Origin: a candidate division Kazan bacterium RIFCSPHIGHO2_01_FULL_44_14
GTDB taxonomy: Bacteria > Patescibacteriota > Kazan-3B-28
Direction of reading: 5' to 3'
Assembly: GCA_001771185.1 (NCBI GenBank)
Contig: METB01000001.1
Span: 567,200-631,199 of the forward strand
Length of the DNA stretch: 64,000 nucleotides
In this document: one piece after another, positions 4,902-59,545 of the stretch
Layout of the letters: the number at the start of each line of letters is the position of its first letter
Position numbering within the stretch: the stretch's first letter is position 1
Notes under the pieces: model-generated
Databases searched by the model: none
Told to the model about the DNA's origin: nothing
The model's input: the letters and a program-made list of their open reading frames with translations, nothing else
Position numbers and translations under genes: made by a program

Positions 4902-5129
4902 ATGAATTCACAAATCTATTCCAAAGAGTACAAGGAACTGGTAAAGAAACTGCGTCAAGCACGACTTGATGTGGGTTTAACACAGAAAGAAGTGGCTCAG
5001 AAGTTAGGCAAGCCACAGTCGTTTGTATCGAAGGTGGAGGCGGGACAGAGGCGGTTGGATGTACTGGAACTTAAGACATTGGCCGTAATATATCGTCAGG
5101 ATATTAAAAAATTCTTTTATGCCAAATAA
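4902..5129 (+). CDS. controller (C) protein of a restriction-modification system; XRE-family HTH regulator
   Basis: 75 aa; HTH_3 signature GLTQKEVAQKLGKPQSFVSKVEAGQR; overlaps the start of the downstream putative endonuclease gene, as in C-R operons. Confidence 0.65.
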   Translation: MNSQIYSKEYKELVKKLRQARLDVGLTQKEVAQKLGKPQSFVSKVEAGQRRLDVLELKTLAVIYRQDIKKFFYAK

Positions 5130-6126
5130 TCAAGGACAACAAACCAATCCGGTCGATAGTATTGATTACGAGGCAATTGTAGAGAAGTATCCCTGGATAG
5201 TTGCACGAGACCAAAAAACAATTATCAGTCCAGATGCAGATGGTATTCTATGTGGATTACTAATGTCTCATTATTATGGATGGGAAATAGTCGGTTATTA
5301 TGATGGGAAAGCATTGGCGCTTAAACAAGGGTTGTCGATGCAGGAGTGTATTTTTCTTGATATTGAAATTTTTAGAGCAGGCGTCCGGAGTGTTGGGCAT
5401 CATATTATTGAGTTGGCACATCATGCGCCACCTAACAATTGGTTAACTTTCAAGCCACAATTAGATGGGTGTATCAATCCAAATATGATTCGGGGAGTTG
5501 ATTATTGGAACTCCCATTATCACTTTAAATATCCGATGGCCACAATTCACCTGTTGGTTGGTATTCTCAATGCCAATTCTGCTATTTCTATTCCACAGAG
5601 CGCTTTGGTCCCATTGCTACATGCTGATGGACTGGCAAATATTTTAATCAGCCGGTATACAGATAATTTACTAAGCTGGATGAAATATCTAGGAATTAAT
5701 CTAGAGGAACATCCATTGCATTGGCTATTTTTTCACAATATGCGGATAGTCGATTTAATGCAGGAACTAGCTAATTTTTATAGCGGTATTGGAACTGGGA
5801 GGCAGGGTAGGATTGATAAAATCTCCATTTCCGATAGTAAGGGGAATATTACCTTGAGTCCTGATGGTACAGTATATAAGTTTAGTGACGAATTAGTGAC
5901 CAAAGCAACTGGGTTTCTTGATTATCTTGCTGATAAAACGCAATGGGAGTTTAAATCAGATGCGTGGCAATTTAATAACTTGTCGGTTTATAGTTTTTCT
6001 AAAGGAGTGGCCAAGCCAACACAATCTGCGTATGCGGGAGTAATTGGACAAAACCCTCTATCATTGGCTATCACTAGCACTGACGGTATTCAGTACACGG
6101 TTGAGGGGCCAGACAATGCTCCTTAG
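5119..6126 (+). CDS. putative type II restriction endonuclease
   Basis: 335-aa ORF translationally coupled to the C gene and convergent with the methyltransferase (4-bp tail overlap); possible PD-(D/E)XK-like PDADG...LDIEIF segment; no other homology recognisable. Confidence 0.45.
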   Translation: MPNNQGQQTNPVDSIDYEAIVEKYPWIVARDQKTIISPDADGILCGLLMSHYYGWEIVGYYDGKALALKQGLSMQECIFLDIEIFRAGVRSVGHHIIELAHHAPPNNWLTFKPQLDGCINPNMIRGVDYWNSHYHFKYPMATIHLLVGILNANSAISIPQSALVPLLHADGLANILISRYTDNLLSWMKYLGINLEEHPLHWLFFHNMRIVDLMQELANFYSGIGTGRQGRIDKISISDSKGNITLSPDGTVYKFSDELVTKATGFLDYLADKTQWEFKSDAWQFNNLSVYSFSKGVAKPTQSAYAGVIGQNPLSLAITSTDGIQYTVEGPDNAP

Positions 6127-6974
6127 CGCACCAGCTCGGCGGCTATTTGGTTAGCTTCTATAACCAGACGTTGCTTGGCGATTTTACAATATTCTTCTGC
6201 AATATCTATCCCTATGAAGTTGCATCCAAGGTTTGCAGCTGCAACGAGAGTAGTCCCACTGCCAGCCATTGGATCTAGGACAATACCTTTTGGTGGGCAA
6301 AAGGTTTTTATGAAGTCAATTGGGAGTTGGTCGGGGAATGTGGCGGGGTGTTCATGCTTGAGTCGACTACCGTCGCCTGCTGTTAAGTAGTCCCAGATGG
6401 TTCCACGGCACTTCATTAAATTAATTTTTATTGAGCGAGTATCAATCCGAACACCGTTGGTTAGACGAGTGCCTCCGCCGGTCATGGTTTTTCCGCCGTG
6501 TTTTGATGGGATTTTCAGATGTTCTTTGTTGAAATACTGAGGTCGTTCGCCTTTTAGAAAAATTGGAACATATTCATGGTCTACTCGGAATCTTTTATTC
6601 CACCAGGCACCCTCGGCTCCATATTTACGATAAACAACAGTTTCGAATAACTTAAATCCAGCATTATCACACCAATCGATTATTGTTCGAAATGATGTGA
6701 GGGATTTGCCAAAATTTTTGGTTTGGTCTTGGATTACCATTACAGCAACGCCACCATCTTTAAGAACACGATAGATTTCTTTGCCGAGAGATGGCAGGTC
6801 AAGTGAAAATCCTTTGTAGTCCCGGATACTATCATAGGGTGGGGAGGTAACTACGATATCAATACAGTTGTCGGGTAATTTTTTAAGTGCTTCAACACAG
6901 TCCATGCATTGCACGGTATTTTTCCATTCAATTAAATAATTTTTTTGAGTTTTAACTATCATGCTGGTAGCCAT
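6123..6974 (-). CDS. DNA methyltransferase, beta class (motif IV before motif I), probably N4-cytosine or N6-adenine
   Basis: Motif IV VVTSPPYDS (SPPY) near the N-terminus and motif I VLDPMAGSGTTLVAA near the C-terminus. Confidence 0.8.
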   Translation of the reverse strand: MATSMIVKTQKNYLIEWKNTVQCMDCVEALKKLPDNCIDIVVTSPPYDSIRDYKGFSLDLPSLGKEIYRVLKDGGVAVMVIQDQTKNFGKSLTSFRTIIDWCDNAGFKLFETVVYRKYGAEGAWWNKRFRVDHEYVPIFLKGERPQYFNKEHLKIPSKHGGKTMTGGGTRLTNGVRIDTRSIKINLMKCRGTIWDYLTAGDGSRLKHEHPATFPDQLPIDFIKTFCPPKGIVLDPMAGSGTTLVAAANLGCNFIGIDIAEEYCKIAKQRLVIEANQIAAELVR

Positions 6975-7052: not shown

Positions 7053-8357
7053 ATGAAAATAACTAAACAAACAGGGGAGAAGAATCATATTAAACTAGTC
7101 ATTGCGCTGGAGGCCTCCGAGTGGGAGAAAATTTTGGACAAAGCAAGTGTCAAAGCGAGTGAAGGGGCGAAGATTCCGGGGTTTAGAGAGGGCAGAGCAC
7201 CCAGAACGGTGGTGATTAATCAGATTGGGGAGGCCAGAGTGGTGAGTGTGGCGATTGAATTGGCGGTGGAGGAGTATTATCCACTCGCTGCCAAGCAAGA
7301 GCAGATTAAGCCGATAGCATTCCCCAAGATTTCAGTCGAGAAAGGTGGAATGACCGAACCGTTAACTTTTACCGCAGAAGTGGCGGTGTTGCCGGAAGTT
7401 GTATTAGGAGATTATTCAAAGATAAAAATAGTAAAGAGTATTGAGTTGGTGAGTGATGAGAGTGTAGAAGAGGTATTGAAGAGCTTGCAGAAAAAGGCGG
7501 TGGAGTTTCAGCCAGTTGAGCGGGAAGCTAAACTAGGGGACTGGACCGAGATTGATTTTGATGGCTTTGTGGACGGTAAACCGTTTGAAGGCGGGTCATC
7601 CAAGAAACATCCGCTGATTTTAGGGGATAAAGTTTTTATTCCTGGCTTTGAAGAGGGGATGGTGGGAATGCGAGCGCAAGAAGAGAAAGATATTGAAGTT
7701 GAATTTCCGAAGGATTATCACAACAAGGACTTGGCGGGGAAACCGGCGAAATTCACGGTGAAACTACATCAAATTAAGGCGGTGAATTATCCAGATATTG
7801 ATGATGCGTTTGCCAAGAAACATGCCAATGTGGAAACCCTAGAAGCGTTAAAGGCAGATATCAAAAAGTTTTTAGATGAAGAAGCCGAGAAAAAAGCCAG
7901 CGAAAAAGTGCGCGAGGATGCAATTATGGCGCTGACCAAATTGGCCAAGATTGATTTGCCTGATGAACTAGTGAATCAAGAGTTGGACAACATGGTGCAG
8001 GATTTAAAACATCAAGCCGAGCATGCCAAAATGACATTTGAAGATTATCTAAAGCGGGCAGGAGGTCCGCCAGCTGGCGGAGAAGAGTGGCTGAAGAATC
8101 AATGGCGCGAACAAGCCGAACAAAGAGTGTTGGCGGGATTATCGTTGGAGGCCTTCCGCGAAGCCGAAAAAATTGAAGCAACCGATGCAGAAGTGGATGA
8201 GGAAATTAATCGGATTAAAGCCCAGTATCCCCAGAACGCTGACGAAATCGAAAAAGAATATGGCAGTGCGCGGGGTAAAGCCCGGCTCGGGCAGATGGTG
8301 GGAAGTCGCAAGGCAGTAGAGAAACTAGTTGAAATCGCCACTTCAACTTCTTCTTGA
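7053..8357 (+). CDS. tig: trigger factor
   Basis: 434 aa; typical trigger-factor N-terminus (MKITKQTGEKNHIKLVIALEASEW) and FKBP-like central domain; classic neighbour of clpP. Confidence 0.8.
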   Translation: MKITKQTGEKNHIKLVIALEASEWEKILDKASVKASEGAKIPGFREGRAPRTVVINQIGEARVVSVAIELAVEEYYPLAAKQEQIKPIAFPKISVEKGGMTEPLTFTAEVAVLPEVVLGDYSKIKIVKSIELVSDESVEEVLKSLQKKAVEFQPVEREAKLGDWTEIDFDGFVDGKPFEGGSSKKHPLILGDKVFIPGFEEGMVGMRAQEEKDIEVEFPKDYHNKDLAGKPAKFTVKLHQIKAVNYPDIDDAFAKKHANVETLEALKADIKKFLDEEAEKKASEKVREDAIMALTKLAKIDLPDELVNQELDNMVQDLKHQAEHAKMTFEDYLKRAGGPPAGGEEWLKNQWREQAEQRVLAGLSLEAFREAEKIEATDAEVDEEINRIKAQYPQNADEIEKEYGSARGKARLGQMVGSRKAVEKLVEIATSTSS

Positions 8358-8383
8358 CCAAACTCTTTAGCGTCATTTTCAAT

Positions 8384-8412
8384 AATTAAATGAACGGCCG
8401 TTCATCTAATTA
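8384..8412. repeat. ~29-bp near-perfect palindrome with GAACGGCCGTTC core (copy 1), after tig
   Basis: aattaaatgaacggccgttcatctaatt followed by a T-run; same family as copies at 8916, 25575 and 54375. Confidence 0.8.
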
Positions 8413-8456
8413 TTGGGTTTTTGATATAATTAATTTGGAAAATTAAAGTTTGGGGG

Positions 8457-8927
8457 ATGAAGACCAGCCGAGGAGCGTACAGATTGATGAAGACGTTATT
8501 CCGCCTGATGGACCGGGGCGGAACGATTTGGTTAGACAAATCCTGGCAAAAGAAAGTTGGTAATAGCAACCAAGCTGGTGCGGGGCGAACTTTTAAATAT
8601 TTGTGTCAGGCCAAATATCTATTAGAGTTGGGATCTGATAGATTCCAGGTGACGGATTTGGCCAAGATTAATTTATTGCAGGAAATTGTAAAAACACGGA
8701 AACCGGACGGAAAGTTGCGATTAGTGATTTTTGATATTCCCGAAAAACTAAAAAGGAATCGGAATCATTTTCGGCGACATTTAGCGGAGATGGGATTCAA
8801 AATGCAACAACAAAGTGTCTGGGTATCACAGTATCCATGTGAGGATTTAGTTAGTTTAGTGGTGAAATATCATGGGCTGGGGAAGTACGTAGAATTGATA
8901 ATTGGCAAACTCGCGATAATTAGATGA
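8457..8927 (+). CDS. hypothetical protein with C-terminal Cas2-fold-like domain
   Basis: C-terminal LRLVIFDIPEKLKRNRNHFRRHLAEMGFKMQQQSVWVS resembles the Cas2 core (VxYDV...RR...G.RvQ.SVF); N-terminal ~80 aa is possibly a wHTH; no CRISPR array nearby; flanked by near-identical palindromes. Confidence 0.4.
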   Translation: MKTSRGAYRLMKTLFRLMDRGGTIWLDKSWQKKVGNSNQAGAGRTFKYLCQAKYLLELGSDRFQVTDLAKINLLQEIVKTRKPDGKLRLVIFDIPEKLKRNRNHFRRHLAEMGFKMQQQSVWVSQYPCEDLVSLVVKYHGLGKYVELIIGKLAIIR

Positions 8928-8947
8928 ACGGCCGTTCATCTAATTAT
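8916..8947. repeat. 32-bp perfect palindrome with GAACGGCCGTTC core (copy 2), spanning the stop codon of the Cas2-like gene
   Basis: ataattagatgaacggccgttcatctaattat, a perfect inverted repeat nearly identical to copy 1. Confidence 0.8.
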
Positions 8948-9024
8948 TTGGCCAATAAAGAGGAGGAGCAAGAAAAAGCACTACGCGCTGGAAAGCGAGT
9001 AGGGCGATTTGAGGGAGATGTGCA

Positions 9025-9369
9025 TCATCTAGGAGGAATGTCGGCATTGGCGCCGGCAGAAGCGACGGCTTCGAGCAAGGGCGTCTCCTCTATTGGTTTG
9101 ACGGCCGGATAGACATTCGCGAGCTGGACGGTCTCGATGTCGAGACCTAGTGGGGTTAACGCTTCGACGAGGAGTGTAACCTCTTGGGCGGACTTTTCGG
9201 GAAAGAAAATCCGTAAGAACGGATGAAAAGTGTTTGGTCCGCTTCTTCTGGCTTCGAGATGAGGGATTACCTCCACGCTGGTGAAGACCTCAAACTTTTT
9301 TCTAACCCGATCGTAAGTTGAGGAACTCTCTGGTGGGAGTTCCCCGTGAATCTCTACAGTAATGGTCAT
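9025..9369 (-). CDS. hypothetical protein
   Basis: 114-aa ORF with a strong AGGAGG RBS 7 nt upstream on the minus strand. Confidence 0.5.
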   Translation of the reverse strand: MTITVEIHGELPPESSSTYDRVRKKFEVFTSVEVIPHLEARRSGPNTFHPFLRIFFPEKSAQEVTLLVEALTPLGLDIETVQLANVYPAVKPIEETPLLEAVASAGANADIPPR

Positions 9370-9487
9370 GTGCAGATCCTCCTAAAACTGAAAGTACAAG
9401 TCAGATGTAGGGTAGAGTAAAATCGGCTCTGGGTCACGATTTTTGTATAGAGTATAATTGGGCTGTATATTTCTCTAATTTATTATC

Positions 9488-10630
9488 ATGAAACTTGTAT
9501 ATGTCATCTTGGGTCTTGGTTTGTTGGCTGGAGTGGGTTATGTCAGTTATAACTATGGGTCTAATCAAGGGATGACTCCAACACCGACCAATACCACAAA
9601 TACTTCAAACACGGCGACGGGTTTGAATAACTCAACGATTGATTTGAATGATTTCACTGGGAATACCACTATCCCAACCACTAATACAACCAATAATACT
9701 ACAACCAATACAACGACCATCGGAACCAAGTCGTTAGCAATTACTTCGCCGAAGAATGGGACGGTGGTGGTAGCGGATAACCCATTTAATGTGACAGGCA
9801 CGGTATCATCTAATGCCGAGAAAATTGTTGTAACGGTATATGGAACTGGGTCTTGGGATGGGTTGGATAGCCCATCGTACGAAAGGGTAGTTGATACATA
9901 TACGCTAACGAAATTCAAATTGGGTGATACGACTTGGCGGTATGGAGTGGGTGAAAAGTACGGCAATATCGAAGTGGGTGGAACGTCAAATCACAGATTT
10001 GTAATTAAAGCGTTTTATACCGATGGCACAACCAAGACAGCTGAAACCAAGGTAACTTATACTTACGAAACTGCCGAGATGGGTAAGCCGGTAATTTATC
10101 TATATCCCACCACCACTCAAGCAGTGAGTGTAAATGTAAAACCAACTTCGGGGATTTCTTACAGTGAACCAGTGATTAGTTCAGTCGGATGGCAAGTTAC
10201 GGCCAGTCCAGATGGAACTTTGGTGGATAGGGCTGGAAAAGTTTGGCCGTATTTGTTCTGGGAGGGTTTTGCGACTAATTTTGTAACGCCGAAGGAAGGG
10301 TTTGTGGTTGCAAAAAATGAAGTGTCGAAATTCTTTGATTTGCAGTTGACGCAATTGGGATTGAATCAAAAAGAAATCGCGGACTTCAAAGAATTCTGGG
10401 TACCACGGATGCAGACCAAGCCATATTATTTTGTGACATTTATTCCGCAAAATATATTTAACAGTTATGCGCCATTAACGGTAACTCCGGTGCCGGATAC
10501 GATTATTCGCGTATTCTTTGATTACAAAGGATTGGATAAACCAGTTATAGTTTCGATCCAGGTTTTACCAGCGACTCCTTCGCGGACCGGATTTACAGTG
10601 GTTGAATGGGGAGGCCGGATTTATCGGTAA
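9488..10630 (+). CDS. secreted protein with Thr/Asn-rich low-complexity linker
   Basis: N-terminal TM/signal; 70-aa T/N-rich region (TNTTNTSNTATG...); C-terminal globular domain of unknown function. Confidence 0.55.
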   Translation: MKLVYVILGLGLLAGVGYVSYNYGSNQGMTPTPTNTTNTSNTATGLNNSTIDLNDFTGNTTIPTTNTTNNTTTNTTTIGTKSLAITSPKNGTVVVADNPFNVTGTVSSNAEKIVVTVYGTGSWDGLDSPSYERVVDTYTLTKFKLGDTTWRYGVGEKYGNIEVGGTSNHRFVIKAFYTDGTTKTAETKVTYTYETAEMGKPVIYLYPTTTQAVSVNVKPTSGISYSEPVISSVGWQVTASPDGTLVDRAGKVWPYLFWEGFATNFVTPKEGFVVAKNEVSKFFDLQLTQLGLNQKEIADFKEFWVPRMQTKPYYFVTFIPQNIFNSYAPLTVTPVPDTIIRVFFDYKGLDKPVIVSIQVLPATPSRTGFTVVEWGGRIYR

Positions 10631-11788: not shown

Positions 11789-12385
11789 ATGAATTTAATT
11801 CCAATGGTGATTGATAAGTCACCGATGGGGGAGCGAGCGTATGACATTTATTCTCGTTTGTTAAAGGACAGAATTATTTTTATTGGTGGGCCAATTGATG
11901 ACCAGATGGCCAATTCAGTAATTGCTCAATTATTGTTTTTGGAAAGTGAAGATCCAAAGAAAGATATTTCGCTGTACATCAACAGTCCTGGAGGTTCGGT
12001 GAGCGATGGGATGGCGATTTATGACACAATGCAACATGTGAAACCGGACATCAACACGATTTGTGTCGGGATGGCGGCTTCGATGGGCGCAGTTCTACTT
12101 TCTGGCGGAGCAAAAGGAAAACGATTTGCGTTGCCGAATTCACGGGTGATGATTCATCAGGTCTTAGGCGGAGCGCAAGGACAAGCCAGTGATATTGAAA
12201 TTCACGCTAAAGAAATTCTGAAATGGAAGAGTAAACTGAATGAATTGCTGGCGCATCATAGCGGACAGAAACTGGAAAAGATTGAGAAAGACACCGATCG
12301 AGATTTCTTTATGGAAGCACCAGAGGCCAAGGACTACGGAATTATTGACCAGGTGATTACGAATAAGACATTGGTGGCTAAATAA
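11789..12385 (+). CDS. clpP: ATP-dependent Clp protease proteolytic subunit
   Basis: 198 aa; motifs [45 protein letters not shown] (active-site Ser) and MIHQ (His). Confidence 0.9.
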
Positions 12386-12827
12386 ATCTAACCAATTTTC
12401 CCAATTTTCTGTCATCCCGAGCGAAGTCGACCAATCTCACCAATAGGGCAGAAGCAGAGAGGTTTTGGTTGTTTTCTGGATTCCGGCTCGTAGGCCGGAA
12501 TGACGAGGAAGCAGGATTGGGGGGAGGAATTATTGTTCTAGGACTGGCTATTGACCCGAATTCGGGAGTATTGTAAATTAAGCGCGTCTGCTGTCGCTTA
12601 ATGTTTAGTATTGATGAACACGTGCTCAAGGCGATGGCAGATGTTCTTTTTTACTTTTAACCAGGATTTGGGAGGCGCCATGAAAAAAGTTTTGAAGCTC
12701 CCGTTGGTGAGCGGTCCCTTCTTTGTCTGACGGAAGGTGAGTCGCTAAATGCAGTCAGTCATTGTTGGTTTCTCCTAATAGCATGACCATTGATTTTTAG
12801 TCATAACGCATCCTGGTTTTAATCCGC

Positions 12828-12862: not shown

Positions 12863-12943
12863 TTATTTTTCCAAGGGTCTACGCCACCCTTGATGGGTGT
12901 TTTTGCCACCCCATTTGCTTGTCCAAATGGGGTGGCGCCCCAA

Positions 12944-13182
12944 AAGACACCCCACTCCCAAATTCAGTTTCCAATAACCTAAAATTACCCTTTCTAGTCT
13001 CCTTGCCCGCATTGCTACGCAAAGCGTTGCGGGCGGGTAACGCAAACTCTCCCGGTGAACCGGGATCAAACATGCTGGACCAAGCAGGTGATTTTACGAT
13101 TGGATCCGCCTGCTGGCGGACTGAATTTGCTCGATGGGTCCTAACAGAATTGATACCCCGAGGGACCGAGGGGATACCTTAA
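12944..13182 (+). repeat. ~240-bp structured dispersed repeat, copy 1 (upstream of holB)
   Basis: Near-identical to 14386-14628 and partially to 59376-59545; contains a conserved GCCCGC...GCGGGC stem and a variable-sequence hairpin with compensatory changes. Confidence 0.75.
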
Positions 13183-13302: not shown

Positions 13303-14202
13303 ATGGAGAAAATCGCGGATATTTTTGATGGGTTAACTGGCCAACCTCGGGCGAGGGAGGTTTTGGGTGTGGCTTACGCTAATGGGAAATTACCACAGAC
13401 CATGATTTTTGTGGGGCCCAAAGGAACTGGGAGGAAGACGGTGGCGATGATGTTGGCGAGAGCGTTACATGGGCAGGGACAAGGTAGTCCCTCCGTTCGT
13501 CGGGATAACAAAGAGTTGAGACATCCGGATACCTTTATTTTTTCGGAAGTATTGGCGGAATTGCGGGCCCAAGAACAAAGTAGTCCGATAAAGCGTACCA
13601 CCGATGCAGTAATGAAGTTTTTAAGCATGTCGCCGATTGCATCAAAGATTAAAGTGGCGATTATTGATGAAGCGGATAGTTTGAGTGAAGAATCCCAAAA
13701 CGCATTACTAAAGACACTAGAAGAACCGTTAGCGGATAGTGTATTGATATTAATCAGCGAAGATGAAAAACGATTGTTACCGACAATTGTGTCGCGGTCA
13801 GTGGTGGTGCGATTTGGACCATTAAACGATGCAGATATTAAAACGGTGCTTCCTGGAATATCTGATGAAATTTTAAAGATAGTTCAAGGAAGTTTGGGTT
13901 TGGCTAAAGAATTGTTGGTCGACTTGGAAAAGTTGGATGAAATGCAGAAGATGTGTCAGTTTTGGCTAACTTTAAATAAACAATCGACAGAAGACAAATT
14001 AAAATGGACAGAAATGATGCGGGAGCGTGAATCGGCGGTGAAGTTTTTGGAAACCGGGTTAAGGGTGATTCGGAGCGAATGGCTAACTCAACCGACCGAA
14101 GCCGGGGATAGGGTACTGCGACAAATTCGAACCGCGATTTTGCAGGTGAAAGATAATGTGAACCCCCGGGTGGCGATGGAAGCGATGTTACTTGCTCTGT
14201 AA
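13303..14202 (+). CDS. holB: DNA polymerase III delta-prime subunit
   Basis: 299 aa; AAA+ Walker A GPKGTGRKT; clamp-loader SRC-type motif IIDEADSLSEESQNALLKTLEEP; carries an in-frame repeat-derived insertion (see findings). Confidence 0.75.
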   Translation: MEKIADIFDGLTGQPRAREVLGVAYANGKLPQTMIFVGPKGTGRKTVAMMLARALHGQGQGSPSVRRDNKELRHPDTFIFSEVLAELRAQEQSSPIKRTTDAVMKFLSMSPIASKIKVAIIDEADSLSEESQNALLKTLEEPLADSVLILISEDEKRLLPTIVSRSVVVRFGPLNDADIKTVLPGISDEILKIVQGSLGLAKELLVDLEKLDEMQKMCQFWLTLNKQSTEDKLKWTEMMRERESAVKFLETGLRVIRSEWLTQPTEAGDRVLRQIRTAILQVKDNVNPRVAMEAMLLAL

Positions 14203-14385
14203 TTTTCCCCAAGCGCTGGCTGGCGCTTGACCCAGTATTACCTTCCTCTTGTATTCTTGTCATCCTGAACTTGGTTCAGGATCTATTTTGTTTATGTTTT
14301 CGAGCGTAGAATGACGCTCGATCCATTGGCACTTTTTGCTTGCCTGCCTGCCGGTAGGTAGGTCCAAAAAGTGCCACAAAAAGAC

Positions 14386-14628
14386 ACCCCACTCACAAAT
14401 TCAGTTTCCAATAACTTAAAATCACCCTTTCTGGTCTCCTTGCCAGCATTGCTACGCAAAGCGTTGCGGGCGGGTAACGCAAACTTTCCCGCCGTTTTCA
14501 AAGAAAACGGTTCCCATTTTGCAAAGCAAAAATGGCGGGGTCAAACATGCTGGACCAAGCAGGTGATTTTACGATTGGATCCGCCTACTGGCGGACTGAA
14601 TTTGCTCGATGGGTCCTACTGAATCACT
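14386..14628 (+). repeat. ~240-bp structured dispersed repeat, copy 2 (downstream of holB, direct orientation)
   Basis: Approximately 85-90% identical to copy 1 with an indel in the variable hairpin. Confidence 0.75.
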
Positions 14629-16963: not shown

Positions 16964-16978
16964 ATGGCATTTAGTTCA

Positions 16979-17008
16979 AAAACCGCCCCCTTGTCGGGGC
17001 GGTTTTTT
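16979..17008 (+). terminator. intrinsic terminator
   Basis: aaaaccgcccc-ttgtc-ggggcggtttttt. Confidence 0.6.
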
Positions 17009-17614: not shown

Positions 17615-18481
17615 ATGGCGAACGAAGTGAAGTCCACCGAAGCTAAAGCGAAGGTGGATAGAAAATCTAAAAAGGTGGTAAAGAAGTCTGACAAAGGAGG
17701 TAAATCCTCCTTCGCCCCCGACTTCGCTAAAGCTACGACGGGCAAGAAGGCTACGGAGGACATCGGAGCCAAGAAGAAGGTGGCTCCTCGTAAGTTTGGA
17801 CACGGCAAGAAATATCTGGCCGTTTTACCAAAGGTAGATAAGAATAAGTTCTATCCGGCGATTGAAGCGATTCAGTTAGTCAAAGAGACATCGCCAGTTA
17901 AATTTGATGCGACAGTAGAATTACACATGCAGATGGGGTTGGATCCAAAAAAATCCGAACAGAATATTCGGAGTACGGTTACGCTCCCTGCTGGTACTGG
18001 AAAGACCTTAAAGATTTTAGTGTTGGCAGAAGCGGGTGACGCAGAAAAAGCCAAGAAAGCTGGAGCCGATTTTGCTGGGCTAGAAGATATGATTGAGAAA
18101 ATTAGCAAGGGTTGGCTGGGGTTTGATGTGGTGATTGCTACGCCAGCCGTTATGCCGCAAATTGGGAAACTGGGACAGACCTTAGGAACTAAGGGGTTAA
18201 TGCCAAATCCTAAAGCCGGAACAGTGACGACGGATGTGGCCAAGGCAGTTGAAGAATTTAAAAAAGGTAAAGTTGAATTCCGGTTAGACAAAGATGCGAT
18301 TATTCACATGGGAATTGGGAAGGTATCGTTTACAGCTGAAAATTTATTGGCGAATTTGAACATAATTCTTGGTGCGGTGCGGGCGGCTAAACCGGGAAGT
18401 TCCAAGGGCACTTACATTAAGAGATTGTCACTCGCCAGTACGATGGGGCCCGGAGTAAAAATCGACCCAGGGTCGATTTAA
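17615..18481 (+). CDS. rplA: 50S ribosomal protein L1 with a ~65-aa Lys-rich N-terminal extension
   Basis: Conserved L1 core from KKYLAVLPKVD...TVELHMQMGLDPKKSEQNIRSTVTLPAGTGK; start taken at the ATG preceded by AAGGAG (the ORF track extends to 17591). Confidence 0.85.
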   Translation: MANEVKSTEAKAKVDRKSKKVVKKSDKGGKSSFAPDFAKATTGKKATEDIGAKKKVAPRKFGHGKKYLAVLPKVDKNKFYPAIEAIQLVKETSPVKFDATVELHMQMGLDPKKSEQNIRSTVTLPAGTGKTLKILVLAEAGDAEKAKKAGADFAGLEDMIEKISKGWLGFDVVIATPAVMPQIGKLGQTLGTKGLMPNPKAGTVTTDVAKAVEEFKKGKVEFRLDKDAIIHMGIGKVSFTAENLLANLNIILGAVRAAKPGSSKGTYIKRLSLASTMGPGVKIDPGSI

Positions 18482-18542
18482 TCTAACCAATCAAGACAAT
18501 CTGACCAATCTATACAATCAAGATAATCTAATCGATGTAAAA

Positions 18543-25574: not shown

Positions 25575-25604
25575 CCGAATATTGAACGGCCGTTCAATAT
25601 TCGG
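25575..25604. repeat. 30-bp perfect palindrome with GAACGGCCGTTC core (copy 3), after tgt
   Basis: ccgaatattgaacggccgttcaatattcgg. Confidence 0.8.
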
Positions 25605-37318: not shown

Positions 37319-38401
37319 ATGTTATACGCTGTTATCGTGGCCGGGGGGCAGGGGACCCGGCTCTGGCCGGTGAGCCGGCGAGACAATCCAAAGCAGATTA
37401 GACCGTTCATAGGCGGACGGACGATGTTGCAAAAGACCTATAATCGGGTGGGCAAAATTGTGCCAGTCGAAAATATTTGGGTGGCAACCAATGTGGCCTA
37501 TCGAGAAGAGTTTTGTCAGCAATTGCCTGGATTGTCTAGCGACAGGATGATTCTGGAACCGATAAAACGGAATACGGCGGCGGCAGTTGGGCTGGCGGCG
37601 GTAGTTTTGGCGAAGCATGACTTGGAGGCCACGATGATTAATGTCTGGTCGGATCATTTTATTCGTCACGAAGATGTCTATAAAGAAAAGATTTTGCAGG
37701 CGGAAAAGATTTTAGAGCAACATCCAGAGTGCTTGATAGATATAGTAGCGCGTCCGGAATACCCGGCGACTGGATTTGGTTATTTGGAAGCGGGCGAAGA
37801 ATTGGCACGAATAGATGATGTAGTTGCTTACAAAGCCAAACGATTTGTGGAGAAACCGGATTTGAATACTGCTCAAGAATATTTGTCAGCCGGTAATTTT
37901 TATTGGAACACAGCAATTTTTGTTTGGAAAGTGAGGACATTGCTAGCGATGTACGAAAAGTACTTGCCAGAAATGTATACGGGGTTGATGCAAATTCAAT
38001 CAGCGTGGGGGACTGACGACCAAGAACGAGTAATGAATGAGATTTTTCCAACCCTGGAGAGTGTAGCGATTGATTATGCCATTTTTGAGAAGACCCCAAA
38101 CATTGCGTTGATTCCAGCCGAACTGGGTTGGCGAGATGTTGGGAGCTGGCAAGCCATTTACGATATCTTAACCGAGACCAAAAATGGGGTGGTGCAAAAG
38201 GGGAAAGTGATGGCAGTCGATACCCAGGACACCTTGATTTTTAACGAAAACGAGGGTAAGTTGGTGGCTGTGGTCGGAATTAAGGATTTGGTGATTGTCG
38301 ATACTAAAGATTCTTTGCTTATCATGCACAAAAGCCAAGATCAGGATATTAAAAAAATTATTACGCAACTAGAAGAAACGGGAGAGGTGGAGCAGTTGTA
38401 G
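37319..38401 (+). CDS. manC: mannose-1-phosphate guanylyltransferase
   Basis: Nucleotidyltransferase N-terminus MLYAVIVAGGQGTRLWPVSRRDNPKQ; length and C-terminal left-handed beta-helix region typical of GDP-mannose pyrophosphorylase. Confidence 0.75.
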   Translation: MLYAVIVAGGQGTRLWPVSRRDNPKQIRPFIGGRTMLQKTYNRVGKIVPVENIWVATNVAYREEFCQQLPGLSSDRMILEPIKRNTAAAVGLAAVVLAKHDLEATMINVWSDHFIRHEDVYKEKILQAEKILEQHPECLIDIVARPEYPATGFGYLEAGEELARIDDVVAYKAKRFVEKPDLNTAQEYLSAGNFYWNTAIFVWKVRTLLAMYEKYLPEMYTGLMQIQSAWGTDDQERVMNEIFPTLESVAIDYAIFEKTPNIALIPAELGWRDVGSWQAIYDILTETKNGVVQKGKVMAVDTQDTLIFNENEGKLVAVVGIKDLVIVDTKDSLLIMHKSQDQDIKKIITQLEETGEVEQL

Positions 38402-38607
38402 AAGATAATCTAACCAATTTATCCAATCTGACCAATCTGACTAATTAAATCGCGGAGATGGGAGAGAGGAGAATGATAAGTGAAAAGTTAAGGTATCCCC
38501 TCGGTAAACTCGGGACATCGCCCCTCGGTTCCTCGGGGTAACAGATATTATTATGGTAGCTCTTCGGCTTCTCCTTGACTACGATCGAAGTCGCTTAGGA
38601 AATAAAT

Positions 38608-39951
38608 ATGAATAAGAGGATTTGGTTAATTAGTTTCATTGTCATCGTACTGCTTGGTGCGATTATCGTTGATGTACCGCCAGTAGCGAAATTTTTAGGA
38701 ATTACATCCAAGTTCACCGTTCATCAGGGTTTGGATTTGCAGGGTGGAACTCATTTGGTGTATCAGACAGACCTGTCCAAAGTTAGCGCTGATGGAGTAG
38801 CCGATGCGGCAACTGGAGTGGTGGAAGTAATTCGGCGCCGGATTGACGCACTAGGTGTAACTGAACCAACTATCCAAAAGACCCGCGATAACTCGCGGGT
38901 GATTGTGGAACTGCCTGGAGTTCAAGATGTGAATGAGGCGATTAAGTTAATTGGTGAAACGGCTCAATTAGAATTCAAGGAAGCGATTGATGGAAAGAGT
39001 TGGGTGGATAGCAGTATTAAATCGTATGAATATGCGGATTGGAAGGATACTGGTTTGACTGGAGCCAATTTCCAAAAGGCCGAAGTCCAATTTGATAATA
39101 GTGGGACAACGCTGGTATCGAAACCACAGATTGGAATTACTTTCAATGAAGAAGGTCGGAAATTATTTGCTGATGTGACTGGGCGCAACATCGAGAAACC
39201 GTTGGCGATTTTCTTGGATAAGAATTTGCTGTCGGCGCCAACCGTGCAGGGGAAAATCGATAGCGATTCAGCCGTAATTACTGGTAACTTTAATGTGCAA
39301 GAAGCCAAGCAGTTGGCGATTCAGCTGAATGCCGGGGCTCTGCCGGTGCCAATTGAATTGGTATCGCAAAGCAATATTGGAGCCACGCTAGGAACTGAAT
39401 CGGTGCAGAAAAGTGTGGTGGCAGGTCTGATTGGATTGTTACTGGTGATTTTGTTTATGTTGTTTTACTATCGATTGCCAGGGTTGATTGCTTCAGTGGC
39501 GCTGATTATTTATGCACTGATTACTTTGGCGGTATTTATTACCGTACCGGTGACATTAACCTTGGCTGGGATTGCTGGTTTTATTTTATCGATTGGGATG
39601 GCGATTGATGCCAATATTCTGATTTTTGAACGGATGAAAGAAGAATTGCGGGGAGGTAATGCTTTGGTGGCCGCAATCGATACTGGTTTCAAACGGGCCT
39701 GGACTTCAATTCGGGACTCTAATATGTCGTCACTAATTACTGCGGTTATTTTGTATTATTTTGGATCGAGTTTAATCCGGGGATTTGCAGTGACACTGGG
39801 AATTGGTATTTTAGTGAGTTTGTTTACTGCTTTAACGATTACGCATACAATTTTGCAAATGGTAGCGCGGACTGGGCTGAAAAAGAAATTGAATTGGTGG
39901 ACAGGGGGACAATCTAACCAATTTCGCCAATCTAATCAATCTAACCAATGA
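38608..39951 (+). CDS. secD: protein translocase subunit SecD
   Basis: 447 aa; LDLQGGTHLVYQ motif; periplasmic domain followed by 6 C-terminal TM helices. Confidence 0.85.
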   Translation: MNKRIWLISFIVIVLLGAIIVDVPPVAKFLGITSKFTVHQGLDLQGGTHLVYQTDLSKVSADGVADAATGVVEVIRRRIDALGVTEPTIQKTRDNSRVIVELPGVQDVNEAIKLIGETAQLEFKEAIDGKSWVDSSIKSYEYADWKDTGLTGANFQKAEVQFDNSGTTLVSKPQIGITFNEEGRKLFADVTGRNIEKPLAIFLDKNLLSAPTVQGKIDSDSAVITGNFNVQEAKQLAIQLNAGALPVPIELVSQSNIGATLGTESVQKSVVAGLIGLLLVILFMLFYYRLPGLIASVALIIYALITLAVFITVPVTLTLAGIAGFILSIGMAIDANILIFERMKEELRGGNALVAAIDTGFKRAWTSIRDSNMSSLITAVILYYFGSSLIRGFAVTLGIGILVSLFTALTITHTILQMVARTGLKKKLNWWTGGQSNQFRQSNQSNQ

Positions 39952-40865
39952 ATATACTTGGAGCCAGAAAAATTTGGTTAACCATCTCTGCCGTATTGGT
40001 GGCAGTTAGTATTGCGGCAATGGCTGTGTACGGTTTTAGACCGGGAATTGATTTTGCGGGTGGAACATTGTTGGAGGTAAGAATCGATAATGTTGACCAA
40101 AGTAAATTGCCGGCCGGAACCAGTATTGAAAGTTATCTAACTGAAACTTACAAGAGTAGTACTGGTCAGGAAATGGTGGCGCAGAAAGAAGGCGAGAACC
40201 AGTTCTTGCTTCGAAGCAAATCAGTTACTAACGAACAGAAAAACGCTTGGATTGAAAGTATCAAGACGGTACTGCCTCAAGTAACCGAATTACGATTTGA
40301 ATCGGTTAGCCCAACTCTGGGTGGAGAAGTGGTGCGGAAAGCCGTCTTGGCGGTAATCGTGGCAATGTTGGCAATCCTGCTGTATCTGGCCTATGCCTTC
40401 AGACGGGTACCCAAACCAACTAGTTCGTGGCAGTTTGGAGCGGCAGCAGTAATTGCCTTGCTAGCTCATGATGTAATTATTTTGCTGGGAGTGTATTCGG
40501 TGATGGGACATTTCTGGGGCGCGGAAGCGGACAGCATGTTTATTACGGCATTGCTTACTCTGCTGGGATTTTCGGTGCATGACACAATTGTTACTTTTGA
40601 TCGGTTGAGAGAAAATCTGTTGAAGCGGGGTCCGTCTGATTTTGAGAAGAAGATGAATGACAGTATTGTGGAGACCGTAACTCGGTCAATTAATACTTCG
40701 TTTACAGTGGCATTAGTTCTTGGTGCTATGGTATTAATGGGTGGTTCAACCATTTTCTTTTTCACTTTGTCGCTGTTAATCGGGATTATTCTAGGAACTT
40801 ACTCGTCAATTTTTGTGGCCAGTCCACTACTTTTGATGTGGTATAGGATGTCGGAGAAAAAGTAG
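39948..40865 (+). CDS. secF: protein translocase subunit SecF
   Basis: 305 aa; overlaps secD by 4 nt; motif GIDFAGGTLLEV and a 6-TM topology. Confidence 0.85.
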   Translation: MNILGARKIWLTISAVLVAVSIAAMAVYGFRPGIDFAGGTLLEVRIDNVDQSKLPAGTSIESYLTETYKSSTGQEMVAQKEGENQFLLRSKSVTNEQKNAWIESIKTVLPQVTELRFESVSPTLGGEVVRKAVLAVIVAMLAILLYLAYAFRRVPKPTSSWQFGAAAVIALLAHDVIILLGVYSVMGHFWGAEADSMFITALLTLLGFSVHDTIVTFDRLRENLLKRGPSDFEKKMNDSIVETVTRSINTSFTVALVLGAMVLMGGSTIFFFTLSLLIGIILGTYSSIFVASPLLLMWYRMSEKK

Positions 40866-59231: not shown

Positions 59232-59375
59232 CGGCACTCGACCCGTTCCCGCCTTGTCTTGTGTTTTTGTCATTCTGAACGAAGTGAAAAATCTAGTCCC
59301 GGTAGGCCGGGACGTTTCTTCTGCCACCATTTTGCTCACCCAAAACGGTGGCGCCAAAAGGGTGCCCCCACTCAC

Positions 59376-59545
59376 CAATTGCTAGCCAAAATAGAAAATC
59401 ACCCTTTCTGGTCTCCTCGCCCGCATTGCTACGCAAAGCGTTGCGGGCGGGTAACGCAAACTCTTCTGCTGTACAGCAGGATCAAACATGCGGCTTCACC
59501 CACCGAGATTTAGTTCAGTTCAGGACAGTCCTCGTCCTAAGGCCA
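59376..59545 (+). repeat. structured dispersed repeat, partial copy 3 of the 12944/14386 family plus 3' module shared with 47385-47440
   Basis: Shares CACCCTTTCTGGTCTCCTCGCCCGCATTGCTACGCAAAGCGTTGCGGGCGGGTAACGCAAACT with copies 1-2, with a different but again self-complementary variable hairpin (TCCTGCTGTACAGCAGGA). Confidence 0.7.

What the first reader, a model, noticed from the sequence alone, without database searches (positions are those of the whole stretch)
8384..8947. Lone Cas2-fold-like gene bracketed by near-identical 30-bp palindromes, inserted between tig and clpP
The 156-aa protein ends with a segment matching the Cas2 core pattern (LVIFDIP...RNHFRRHL...GFKMQQQSVWVS), but no CRISPR array or other cas genes are present in 64 kb. 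It is flanked on both sides by a palindrome of the form AATTA[A/G]ATGAACGGCCGTTCATCTAATTAT: 32 bp and perfect downstream, ~29 bp with one mismatch upstream. The downstream copy contains the gene's stop codon.

tig and clpP are usually adjacent. Here about 3.4 kb of accessory genes separates them and clpX is missing. The palindrome-bounded cassette could be a small mobile or recombination unit, or the palindromes could be protein-binding or terminator sites.
Basis: partly seen in the sequence, partly recalled or inferred. Interest (0 to 1): 0.55.

Follow-up and report, generated by a model that had tools for sequence, protein, structure and literature searches.

The report
Winged-helix/Cas2-fold regulator bracketed by operators
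The "lone Cas2" is a small PaaX-like DNA-binding protein of candidate-phyla-radiation bacteria whose gene is framed by two copies of what is most likely its own palindromic binding site; about 83% of its relatives share this layout, and it is neither a CRISPR remnant nor a mobile cassette.

Summary
ORF 8457-8927 (156 aa) is flanked by near-identical palindromes at 8382-8413 (one mismatched pair) and 8916-8947 (perfect, holding the stop codon).

The protein is a winged helix plus a Cas2-fold domain (Pfam PaaX_M, E 1.9e-17). Its best structural match is E. coli PaaX, then type II-A Cas2. No cas genes or CRISPR array were found in the window.

The "mobile cassette" reading is not supported:
- The gene sits after tig in a sister genome too, and has diverged about as much as Tig (71% vs 67.5% identity).
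- No relatives were found in viral or plasmid collections.
- Neighbouring genes are housekeeping genes, with no recombinases.

The "protein-binding site" reading is strongly supported. In 122 of 147 related Patescibacteria loci the same ~30-bp dyad site occurs just upstream of the start codon (often overlapping an extended -10 box) and again at or just after the stop codon. Sites differ between lineages but match within a genome. In one subgroup the symmetry is confined to three blocks about 11 bp apart, which fits a protein-bound duplex rather than a hairpin.

Most likely mechanism: an autoregulator with an operator pair around its own gene. The role of the 3' site (looping or roadblock) is inferred. 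This is a new variant of a known kind, of moderate interest.

The parts
8382..8413 (.). Upstream site (U): 32-bp dyad ATAATTAAATGAACGGCCGTTCATCTAATTAT with one mismatched pair, extendable to 8380-8415. It begins 25 bp after the tig stop codon and ends 8 bp before the TG of the extended -10 box.
   Evidence: Orthologous U sites were found in L008, L010, L006, L011-L014 and L089-L091.
8422..8430 (+). TGATATAAT, a perfect extended -10 box and candidate promoter of the gene. An overlapping sigma-70-like match is TTGATA-N17-TAAAGT at 8421-8449, whose -10 ends 7 nt before the ATG (leaderless geometry, as in the orthologues).
   Evidence: Read directly from the sequence and found by the consensus scan. 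TATAAT or TGnTATAAT lies 6-8 nt before the ATG in L006, L010, L011 and L013. This is a consensus match only; no transcription start has been mapped.
8457..8696 (+). N-terminal winged-helix domain of the protein (residues 1-80). This is the most variable part among orthologues.
   Evidence: AF2 model with mean pLDDT 87.8, showing the order H-E-H-H-E-E-H. Foldseek aligns the whole protein (165 columns) with E. coli PaaX 8a39 and with other winged-helix proteins. No Pfam hit by sequence. Only one invariant residue, Y48.
8700..8909 (+). Cas2-fold (PaaX_M) domain, residues 82-151, containing 12 of the 13 residues that are invariant in the family alignment: D84, G85, R88, F92, D93, P95, R102, R106, Q118, S120, P127 and C128.
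8916..8947 (.). Downstream site (D): a perfect 32-bp palindrome. Its left arm encodes the last three codons and the stop codon (TGA 8925-8927). It lies in a convergent intergenic region, with a minus-strand terminator-like hairpin at 8989-8977.
   Evidence: D sites lie over or just after the stop codon in the relatives.
25575..25604 (.). Solo 30-bp perfect palindrome CCGAATATTGAACGGCCGTTCAATATTCGG. It shares the 14-bp core TGAACGGCCGTTCA but has different outer arms. It starts 43 bp after the tgt stop codon.
   Evidence: Whether the protein binds it is unknown.
54374..54409 (.). Solo 36-bp perfect palindrome TGTAGTATAAACCAACGGCCGTTGGTTTATACTACA. It shares the 10-bp centre AACGGCCGTT. It lies downstream of the ftsZ intrinsic terminator and 418 bp upstream of nrdR.
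   Evidence: Whether the protein binds it is unknown.

Best explanation
The gene encodes a 'mini-PaaX': a winged-helix DNA-binding domain joined to a Cas2-fold dimerisation domain, without the ligand-binding C-terminal domain of true PaaX.

The two palindromes are most likely the cognate duplex-DNA binding sites (operators) of a homodimer of this protein. The upstream site lies over or against the gene's own promoter, so binding there would repress the gene's own transcription. PaaX does the same at its Px promoter.

The second copy, at the stop codon, would be bound by the same protein. It would either pair with the upstream site to close a loop of about 0.55 kb around the gene, or act as a roadblock that seals the transcription unit.

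What is shown: the fold, the homology, the site pair, its family-wide conservation, its position, its co-variation with lineage, and the lack of mobility.

What is inferred: that this protein is the binder, that it represses, and what the 3' site does.
For: 1. Protein. PaaX_M gives E 1.9e-17. The AF2 model is confident (mean pLDDT 87.8) and shows a winged helix followed by a beta-alpha-beta-beta-alpha-beta domain. The top Foldseek match is E. coli PaaX 8a39 over 165 columns, followed by type II-A Cas2. According to a review, PaaX has an N-terminal winged helix and a central dimerisation motif, binds TGATTC-N27-GAATCA, and represses its own Px promoter by blocking RNA polymerase (PMC9493321).

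2. Site pair across the family. In 122 of 147 related loci from two independent collections, the 135 bp before the start codon and the 160 bp around the stop codon share a sequence scoring above the 99th percentile of displaced controls (5 of 688 controls exceed it).

3. Position. The U site ends a median of 20.5 nt before the start codon. The D site starts a median of 11.5 nt after the stop codon. In 22 Paceibacteria loci the right outer box of U runs into TGCTATAAT, an extended -10 box, 7-8 nt before the ATG. The D copy reads TGCTAAAT instead, so it lacks the box.

4. Duplex site rather than hairpin. In those 41 sites, dyad symmetry is 0.88-1.0 at positions 3-9 (0.68 at position 7) and 0.95-1.0 at positions 14-16, but only 0.17-0.59 at positions 10-13. 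The three symmetric blocks are about 11 bp apart. The median RNA folding energy is only -11 kcal/mol. In the Kazan-type sites, the tolerated mismatches fall at the same linker positions.

5. Specificity. Sites are nearly confined to the gene's own flanks. Only 9 extra copies were found in 1.52 Mb across 117 loci, against 0 for shuffled cores. Among the 22 Paceibacteria loci (374 kb) there is 1 extra copy.

6. Co-evolution. The centres are lineage-specific: CGATCG 51, CGACCG/CGGTCG 30, CTATAG 15, CGGCCG 12. The window and its sister genome differ at two arm positions, and the change appears in three of the window's four half-sites and in all four of the sister genome's (the window's outer upstream half-site keeps A at the second position). 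U-D identity is 0.90 within a genome against 0.80 between genomes (permutation p < 5e-5).

7. Resident, not mobile.
Against: No binding experiment exists for any member of this family, and no dimer-DNA model could be built here.

In the window the U site lies 8 bp upstream of the extended -10 box rather than on it. In the sister genome it is 77 bp from the start codon, so simple occlusion is less clear in this sub-clade.

The window's palindromes are perfect and continuous (16-18 bp arms). That is more than a dimer footprint needs, and they would also make stable hairpins or cruciforms (-12 to -22 kcal/mol as RNA).

The two solo palindromes share only the centre, not the outer boxes, so they fit a single-specificity model poorly.

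One genome (L028) carries at least 5 identical 36-42-bp copies within about 7 kb. That looks like copying rather than independent operator evolution.

The family keeps the Cas2-type FDIP aspartate that E. coli PaaX has lost, so an enzymatic activity is not excluded.

Within-genome concerted change at low-information linker positions (0.85 vs 0.60) could reflect gene conversion rather than selection for binding.
Confidence: 0.65

Rival explanations
1. The palindromes act as folded nucleic acid: an RNA hairpin at transcript 3' ends, or a DNA cruciform. The Cas2-fold domain, an RRM-like fold with a conserved metal-binding aspartate, would bind or cut that structure. The role would be RNA processing or stabilisation, factor-dependent termination, or structure-specific DNA cleavage.
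For: The window's four ACGGCCGT-centred palindromes are perfect or near-perfect, have no loop, and share only the centre. This resembles structure-plus-loop recognition.

All four lie downstream of a plus-strand gene. The extra site in L057 lies 10 bp after the ruvB stop codon.

Nine of the D sites classified lie in convergent intergenic regions, where no promoter is needed.

L010's U site has two T-G mismatches, which would be wobble pairs on the sense strand.

The invariant FDIP...R...R...Q.SV signature is shared with Cas2 and is absent from E. coli PaaX.
Against: The U site abuts or overlaps the -10 box of leaderless promoters, so it is not in the gene's own transcript.

In the best-sampled subgroup the inner arms are not complementary, and the hairpin is weak and not conserved, while the sequence blocks are conserved.

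The palindromy runs through the centre, which a hairpin loop does not need.

The mismatches in the window and in L008 are A-C pairs, not wobble pairs.

Neither palindrome is followed by a T-tract, and the scan found no terminator-like site on the + strand of 8200-9600.

The N-terminal domain is a winged helix, a duplex-DNA reader.
Confidence: 0.12
2. The unit 'site - gene - site' is, or recently was, a mobile or recombining cassette. The two copies would be ends or att-like sites, with solo palindromes as empty targets or footprints. This would resemble REP/RAYT, an integron cassette, or a dif-type module.
For: Identical repeats bracket a single gene.

The Kazan-type gene occurs in at least three genomic contexts: tig-X, rpsP-KH-X-trmD, and others.

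L028 has at least 5 identical copies in about 7 kb, and L044 and L089 have three.

U and D evolve in concert within a genome.

Solo sites with the same centre exist.
Against: No recombinase or transposase appears among the most frequent families in the nearest ORFs flanking the gene (74 upstream, 78 downstream; only the top 25 families per side were listed). They are Tmk, TrmD, NUDIX, dUTPase, M50 peptidase and the like.

No relatives were found in 2.9 million viral contigs or 72,556 plasmids.

Each context is stable across deep divergence. TrmD ranges from 52% to 100% identity with the gene still in place. Tig is 67.5% identical against 71% for the protein.

There is a single copy in the window.

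Asymmetric centres are usually in direct orientation, whereas terminal inverted repeats would be inverted. The U copy is fused to the promoter.

The protein is more conserved than its neighbours: 80-93% against 45-89%.

Extra copies are rare: 9 in 1.52 Mb.
Confidence: 0.06
3. The palindromes have nothing to do with this protein. They would be bound by another factor, or be generic intergenic repeats of a repeat-rich genome that happen to flank it.
For: The window is rich in other intergenic repeat families. Two more palindromes with the same centre lie far from the gene.
Against: The pairing of gene and site is reproduced in 83% of 147 loci across Patescibacteria, with different site sequences in different lineages. 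The sites are almost absent elsewhere in 1.5 Mb of flanks.
Confidence: 0.05

Closest known systems
PaaX, the phenylacetyl-CoA-responsive repressor of E. coli and Pseudomonas (PDB 8a39, 3l09)
   Same: Same order of an N-terminal winged helix followed by a Cas2-like central domain (Pfam PaaX_M). It is the best whole-protein structural match. PaaX binds a long dyad operator, TGATTC-N27-GAATCA, and represses its own promoter by occlusion (PMC9493321).
   Different: The window protein is half the size (156 vs 316 aa) and has no PaaX_C ligand-binding domain. It has no sequence match to the PaaX N-terminal domain model and scores 18.6 bits against TIGR02277, whose cut-off is 264.55. There are no paa genes nearby. 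It keeps the Cas2-type FDIP aspartate, where E. coli PaaX has SEGL. It has a second site at the 3' end of its own gene.
Cas2 of CRISPR-Cas adaptation modules (especially type II-A)
   Same: Same ferredoxin-like fold and a shared sequence signature, (V/I)xFD(I/L)P...R...(F/L)R..L...GF...Q.SV. It is associated with short palindromic repeats.
   Different: No cas1, no CRISPR array and no other cas genes. It carries an N-terminal DNA-binding domain. Only the first 40 of 96 positions of the cas2 model are matched. The 'repeats' number two and frame the gene itself.
REP elements and their RAYT genes (REPtrons/REPINs)
   Same: A single-copy, vertically inherited gene flanked by palindromic repeats that are lineage-specific. 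Occasional extra copies lie in intergenic regions downstream of genes.
   Different: The protein is not an HUH/Y1 transposase. Extra copies are rare (about 0.6 per 100 kb) rather than tens to hundreds per genome. The upstream copy is part of the promoter. Asymmetric centres are usually direct, not inverted.
Repressors that loop DNA between an operator at the promoter and a second one downstream (LacI O1-O2, GalR OE-OI), and autoregulated controller proteins with private operators (C-proteins of restriction-modification systems)
   Same: Two copies of one dyad site, one at the promoter and one hundreds of bp downstream. A protein-site pair that regulates mainly itself and diverges quickly between lineages.
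   Different: Here the second site sits exactly at the end of the regulator's own gene throughout a very large family, and no regulated partner gene is evident. Looping is only inferred. (The comparison rests on general knowledge of these systems.)

Membership tests
CRISPR-associated Cas2 | Match to the Cas2 sequence models over the whole domain | tested here: inconclusive
   TIGR01573 scores 29.4 bits (cut-off 24.5), but only over model positions 1-40 of 96. Pfam CRISPR_Cas2 scores 23.3 bits, below its 23.8 cut-off. A profile of the family hits type II-A Cas2 chains in the PDB at E 5e-4 over about 38 residues.
CRISPR-associated Cas2 | Ferredoxin-like beta-alpha-beta-beta-alpha-beta fold | tested here: met
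   AF2 secondary-structure elements are E86-92, H96-111, E115-118, E121-124, H129-139 and E145-151. Foldseek probability is 1.00 to several Cas2 structures, with TM-scores up to 0.65 normalised to the target.
CRISPR-associated Cas2 | Encoded next to cas1 and a CRISPR array | tested here: not met
   No cas1 or other cas gene among the 26 ORFs of at least 250 aa scanned or otherwise identified (one, 55312-58167, was not scanned). No CRISPR-like repeat family among those listed. No CRISPR direct-repeat family in Rfam. The same holds for the neighbours in 78 related loci.
PaaX transcriptional repressor (TIGR02277 / COG3327) | Central PaaX_M (Cas2-like) domain | tested here: met
   PF20803, E 1.9e-17, 63.6 bits against a cut-off of 24.
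PaaX transcriptional repressor (TIGR02277 / COG3327) | N-terminal PaaX winged-helix domain (PF07848) | tested here: inconclusive
   No Pfam hit for residues 1-80. However, the model shows a winged helix that superposes on the PaaX N-terminal domain in the whole-chain alignment.
PaaX transcriptional repressor (TIGR02277 / COG3327) | C-terminal PaaX_C domain that binds phenylacetyl-CoA; full-length equivalog score | tested here: not met
   The protein ends about 5 residues after the PaaX_M match. There is no PF08223 hit. TIGR02277 scores 18.6 bits against a cut-off of 264.55.
PaaX transcriptional repressor (TIGR02277 / COG3327) | Located with paa catabolic genes | tested here: not met
   The neighbours are tig, a Memo-like gene, clpP and holB. 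No paa genes were found.
PaaX transcriptional repressor (TIGR02277 / COG3327) | Binds a long dyad operator at its own promoter | not testable with these tools
   Comparative data fit this, but binding itself has not been measured.
REP/RAYT (REPtron) | HUH/Y1 transposase-like protein | tested here: not met
   The only Pfam and NCBIfam hits are PaaX_M and Cas2.
REP/RAYT (REPtron) | Many dispersed copies of the flanking palindrome in the genome | tested here: not met
   9 extra copies in 1.52 Mb of flanks. In the window, two copies with the same arms plus two that share only the centre, in 64 kb. The exception is L028. Whole genomes could not be scanned.
IS/MITE-type transposon or integrative cassette | Recombinase or transposase; terminal inverted repeats; variable position among close relatives; carriage on phages or plasmids | tested here: not met
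   Target-site duplications and excision products were not tested.
Intrinsic (Rho-independent) terminator | GC-rich stem, 3-8 nt loop, T-tract | tested here: not met
   The scan of 8200-9600 reports no terminator-like site on the + strand (its two hits are on the - strand), and neither palindrome is followed by a T-tract. The stems are AT-rich with no loop. The genome has canonical terminators elsewhere, for example 16978-17007 and 54257-54283.

The most novel reading that the evidence does not exclude
The Cas2-fold dimer itself sits on the conserved CGNNCG centre of the site while the two winged helices read the outer boxes. Dimers bound at the two sites bridge them, enclosing the gene in a private loop of about 0.55 kb.

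In the strongest form of this reading, the retained Cas2-type acidic site (invariant D93, with P127, C128 and D130) still nicks or processes these palindromes. That would explain their concerted evolution and their occasional proliferation (L028).

The family would then be a free-living relative of Cas2 that recognises short palindromic repeats on its own. It would bear on where the repeat-recognising adaptation module of CRISPR came from.
Probability: 0.1. Interest if true: 0.8.

Novelty: new variant of a known kind. Interest (0 to 1): 0.45.

Why it matters
1. Annotation. NCBI's cas2 model passes its cut-off on these proteins, so they are named 'CRISPR-associated endonuclease Cas2' in Patescibacteria genomes. 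This inflates counts of orphan cas genes in a group where the scarcity of CRISPR is itself a research topic.

2. Biology. The family is large: 5,136 clusters at 50% identity. In Paceibacteria the protein is more conserved than its neighbours (80-93% identity). Yet it has no described function in the literature searched.

3. Testability. A conserved protein-site pair with a defined ~30-bp site gives a directly testable handle on gene regulation or DNA organisation in organisms with very few regulators. The 'regulator framed by two of its own operators' layout is, as far as I could find, undescribed as a family-wide rule.

4. Evolution. It shows a Cas2-fold domain with Cas2-like sequence features working alongside a sequence-specific DNA reader and palindromic repeats, outside CRISPR.

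Tried and rejected
- **DnaA boxes.** Two sites in L021 are followed by TTATCCACA. A scan of all loci showed no meaningful enrichment near the gene (0.17 vs 0.12 per kb), so this was dropped.
- **Common regulon theme.** The genes next to extra sites are heterogeneous: a DeoR-type HTH protein, ribosomal protein L9, PilB, a Mur ligase, YchF and unknowns.
- **Nucleotide-metabolism link.** Neighbours of the gene are enriched in Tmk (11 of 78), dNK, NUDIX (9 of 74), dUTPase and dCTP deaminase. Many are on the opposite strand, so this may be plain synteny within one order. Kept only as a lead.
- **Replication origin or terminus.** GC skew is uniformly positive across the window.
- **Known RNA family at the locus.** None found.
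- **Defence-system models.** PADLOC returns only Cas2 models.
- **Phage or plasmid origin.** No hits.
- **Paralogues in the window.** None.
- **Literature.** Searches for PaaX with Cas2-like, Patescibacteria with palindromes and Cas2, and PF20803/PaaX-like returned nothing relevant.
- **Terminal-inverted-repeat idea.** It looked attractive for L006, L012 and L014, where the outer half-sites match best. It was contradicted by the window and by the direct orientation in 19 or more Paceibacteria genomes.
Full report
**1. The observation**

The ORF at 8457-8927 (+, 156 aa) lies 100 bp after tig (7053-8357). It is framed by two copies of one 32-bp palindrome.
- The upstream copy is 8382-8413, with a single non-complementary pair (A8389/C8406). 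It extends to 36 bp.
- The downstream copy is 8916-8947 and is perfect. It contains the stop codon TGA at 8925-8927.
- At up to 3 mismatches the 32-mer occurs only at these two places, against 0 expected in shuffles.
- All four ACGGCCGT octamers in the 64 kb are centres of long zero-loop palindromes. The other two are solo sites with different arms, at 25575-25604 (43 bp after tgt) and 54374-54409 (after the ftsZ terminator).
- These are also the three longest perfect zero-loop palindromes in the window.

**2. The protein**

Sequence matches:
- Pfam assigns residues 82-151 to PaaX_M, 'PaaX protein central Cas2-like domain' (E 1.9e-17).
- Cas2 models match only the first beta-alpha-beta: TIGR01573 scores 29.4 bits (cut-off 24.5) over positions 1-40 of 96, and Pfam CRISPR_Cas2 scores 23.3 bits (cut-off 23.8).

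Structure:
- An AlphaFold2 model built on 18 relatives is confident (mean pLDDT 87.8). It shows a winged helix at residues 1-80 and a ferredoxin-like domain at residues 86-151.
- The best Foldseek match in the PDB is E. coli PaaX (8a39), aligned over both domains. Type II-A Cas2 structures come next.

Differences from true PaaX:
- E. coli PaaX has three Pfam domains (PaaX, PaaX_M, PaaX_C). The window protein and its relatives have only PaaX_M by sequence, and they end where PaaX_C would begin.
- The relatives keep the Cas2-like signature FDIP...R...R..L...GF...Q.SV. E. coli PaaX reads SEGL at the aspartate position.

CRISPR context: no cas gene (among the large ORFs checked), CRISPR array or ClpX was found in the window.

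**3. Distribution and mobility**

Size and range of the family:
- A word-indexed search found 21 close relatives, which sources label 'PaaX family regulator' or 'Cas2' from candidate division Kazan.
- A profile search of 1.84 billion cluster representatives found 5,136 clusters.
- All 80 loci retrieved from species-representative genomes are Patescibacteria or unclassified MAGs.

Position in the genome:
- In the nearest genome (OY968788.1) the gene again follows tig and precedes clpP. Identities are Tig 67.5%, the protein 71% and ClpP 90%, which is consistent with vertical descent.
- In seven other Kazan-type genomes it sits between rpsP-KH and trmD, with TrmD ranging from 52% to 100% identity.
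- Two metagenomic relatives are in other contexts.

Signs of mobility were looked for and not found:
- The most frequent families in the nearest flanking ORFs (74 upstream, 78 downstream) are housekeeping: Tmk, dNK, TrmD, NUDIX, dUTPase, M50 peptidase. No recombinase or transposase appears among the 25 families listed per side.
- There are no relatives in IMG/VR or PLSDB.
- There is no second copy in the window.

The unit is therefore a resident gene, not a recently inserted cassette.

**4. The palindromes across the family**

The orthologues in L001/L008, L002/L010 and L006 have the same layout with different sequences:
- CACAATTAGCTGAACGGCCGTTCAGCTAATTGTG
- GCACTACACTGAACGGCCGTTCAGTGTAGTGC
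- GCCCACTCTGACGACGGCCGTCGTCAGAGTGGGC

In each case there is one copy upstream and one over the stop codon.

A palindrome-free test was applied to all 147 loci with enough flank, drawn from two independent collections.
- 122 loci share a sequence between the 135 bp before the start codon and the 160 bp around the stop codon that scores above the 99th percentile of displaced controls. Only 5 of 688 controls exceed that level.
- The upstream copy ends a median of 20.5 nt before the start codon. The downstream copy starts a median of 11.5 nt after the stop codon.
- The centres are CGATCG (51), CGACCG/CGGTCG (30), CTATAG (15) and CGGCCG (12).

**5. Duplex binding site or hairpin?**

The best-sampled subgroup is the 187-aa proteins of Paceibacteria: 22 loci, 374 kb, with the protein 80-93% identical.
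- It has a conserved 34-bp site, TTAGCATTAGTGCGCGACCGCTTGTTAATGCTAA, found twice per locus and once elsewhere (10 bp after ruvB in L057).
- The centre is asymmetric. It is usually in the same orientation in both copies, which argues against terminal inverted repeats.
- Dyad symmetry is high at positions 3-9 and 14-16 but only 0.17-0.59 at positions 10-13. This gives three conserved blocks about one helical turn apart. The RNA hairpin is weak (median -11 kcal/mol).
- The right outer box of the upstream copy runs into TGCTATAAT, an extended -10 box, 7-8 nt before the ATG. The downstream copy reads TGCTAAAT.
- In Kazan-type genomes TATAAT-like boxes also lie 6-8 nt before the ATG, directly after the site.
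- In the window the site ends 8 bp before TGATATAAT (8422-8430). A second consensus match, TTGATA-N17-TAAAGT, ends 7 nt before the ATG.

According to a review, PaaX binds TGATTC-N27-GAATCA and represses its own promoter by occlusion (PMC9493321). Long dyad operators with distal boxes are therefore a trait of the wider family.

**6. Co-variation**

- The window and its sister genome differ at two arm positions. The change is present in three of the window's four half-sites and all four of the sister genome's; the window's outer upstream half-site keeps A at the second position.
- Across 19 Paceibacteria genomes, U-D identity within a genome is 0.90. This compares with 0.80 between genomes and 0.81 for U against U (permutation p < 5e-5). 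At linker positions the figures are 0.85 and 0.60.
- This fits co-adaptation of a private protein-site pair. It would also fit gene conversion between the two copies.

**7. Specificity**

- With a 20-bp core and up to 3 mismatches, only 9 extra copies occur in 1.52 Mb around 117 loci, and none with shuffled cores.
- The genes next to these extra copies have no common theme.
- The exception is a Uhrbacteria contig (L028), which has at least 5 identical 36-42-bp copies in about 7 kb.

**8. Interpretation**

The most economical reading has three parts:
- The protein is a homodimeric winged-helix/Cas2-fold DNA-binding protein.
- The two sites are its operators.
- The upstream one gives autorepression.

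The 3'-end copy is found across the family and often lies between convergent genes (9 of the D sites classified), so it is not a promoter operator. Looping with the upstream site or a transcriptional roadblock are the natural roles, but both are inference.

Several observations remain unexplained:
- the perfect 30-36-bp palindromes of the Kazan clade;
- the two solo palindromes that share only the centre;
- the retained Cas2-type aspartate together with an invariant Pro-Cys;
- the proliferation of the site in L028.

These keep a structure-specific or enzymatic role alive at low probability.

**9. Verdict**

Interest is moderate.

Noticed in passing
window 4902-6974: A probable type II restriction-modification unit lies just upstream of tig: an HTH_3 controller-like protein (75 aa), an unknown 335-aa ORF, and an N6/N4 DNA methylase on the minus strand. 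The sister genome has Eco57I-like and T5orf172 genes at the same spot (L001 1-3309), so this looks like a variable defence locus.
   Followed up: partly
window 12942-13143 and 14379-14618 (third copy at 59356-59468): Direct repeats of about 200 bp, 95-98% identical, bracket holB (13303-14202). This is a second 'bracketed gene' in the window, of a different kind.
   Followed up: no
window 12385-12405, 18468-18539, 38395-38448, 39908-39961, 50249-50311: Short arrays of a 9-bp-period motif (..CAATCTR..) occur at or just after the ends of several genes (clpP, rplA, a nucleotidyl transferase, secD). Their function is unknown.
   Followed up: no
window 25575-25604 and 54374-54409: Two solo perfect palindromes (30 and 36 bp) share the AACGGCCGTT centre of the gene-flanking sites but have unrelated arms. 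One lies after tgt. The other lies between the ftsZ terminator and nrdR.
   Followed up: partly
window 48150-49217 and 49329-49841: An IS110-family transposase ORF is followed by two 138-nt repeats that are 92% identical.
   Followed up: no
window 54617-54817: Four or more tandem copies of a 34-bp unit (CGGGTTTCCCTCCGTTCGTCGGGACCTGGTACAG) lie directly upstream of nrdR. Related single units are scattered through the window (11713, 13484, 38517).
   Followed up: no
L028 5698-12432 (Uhrbacteria contig JACPJN010000007.1): At least five identical 36-42-bp copies of that genome's site (TGTCCCAAAATCTCACGGCCGTGAGATTTTGGGACA) separate successive transcription units. Two copies also share 30 bp of left flank. 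This is the only locus where the site looks amplified.
   Followed up: partly
L015-L087, the ~180-190-aa subfamily (for example L057 9713-10276, and P0020): Most non-Kazan relatives carry an extra N-terminal hydrophobic segment of about 15-25 residues before the winged helix. It may be a membrane anchor. The window protein lacks it.
   Followed up: no
related loci, nearest neighbouring genes: Neighbours of the gene are enriched in nucleotide-metabolism genes: thymidylate kinase (11 of 78), deoxynucleoside kinase (7), NUDIX (9 of 74), dUTPase (5) and dCTP deaminase (4). They are often on the opposite strand. This could be synteny within one order or a functional link.
   Followed up: partly
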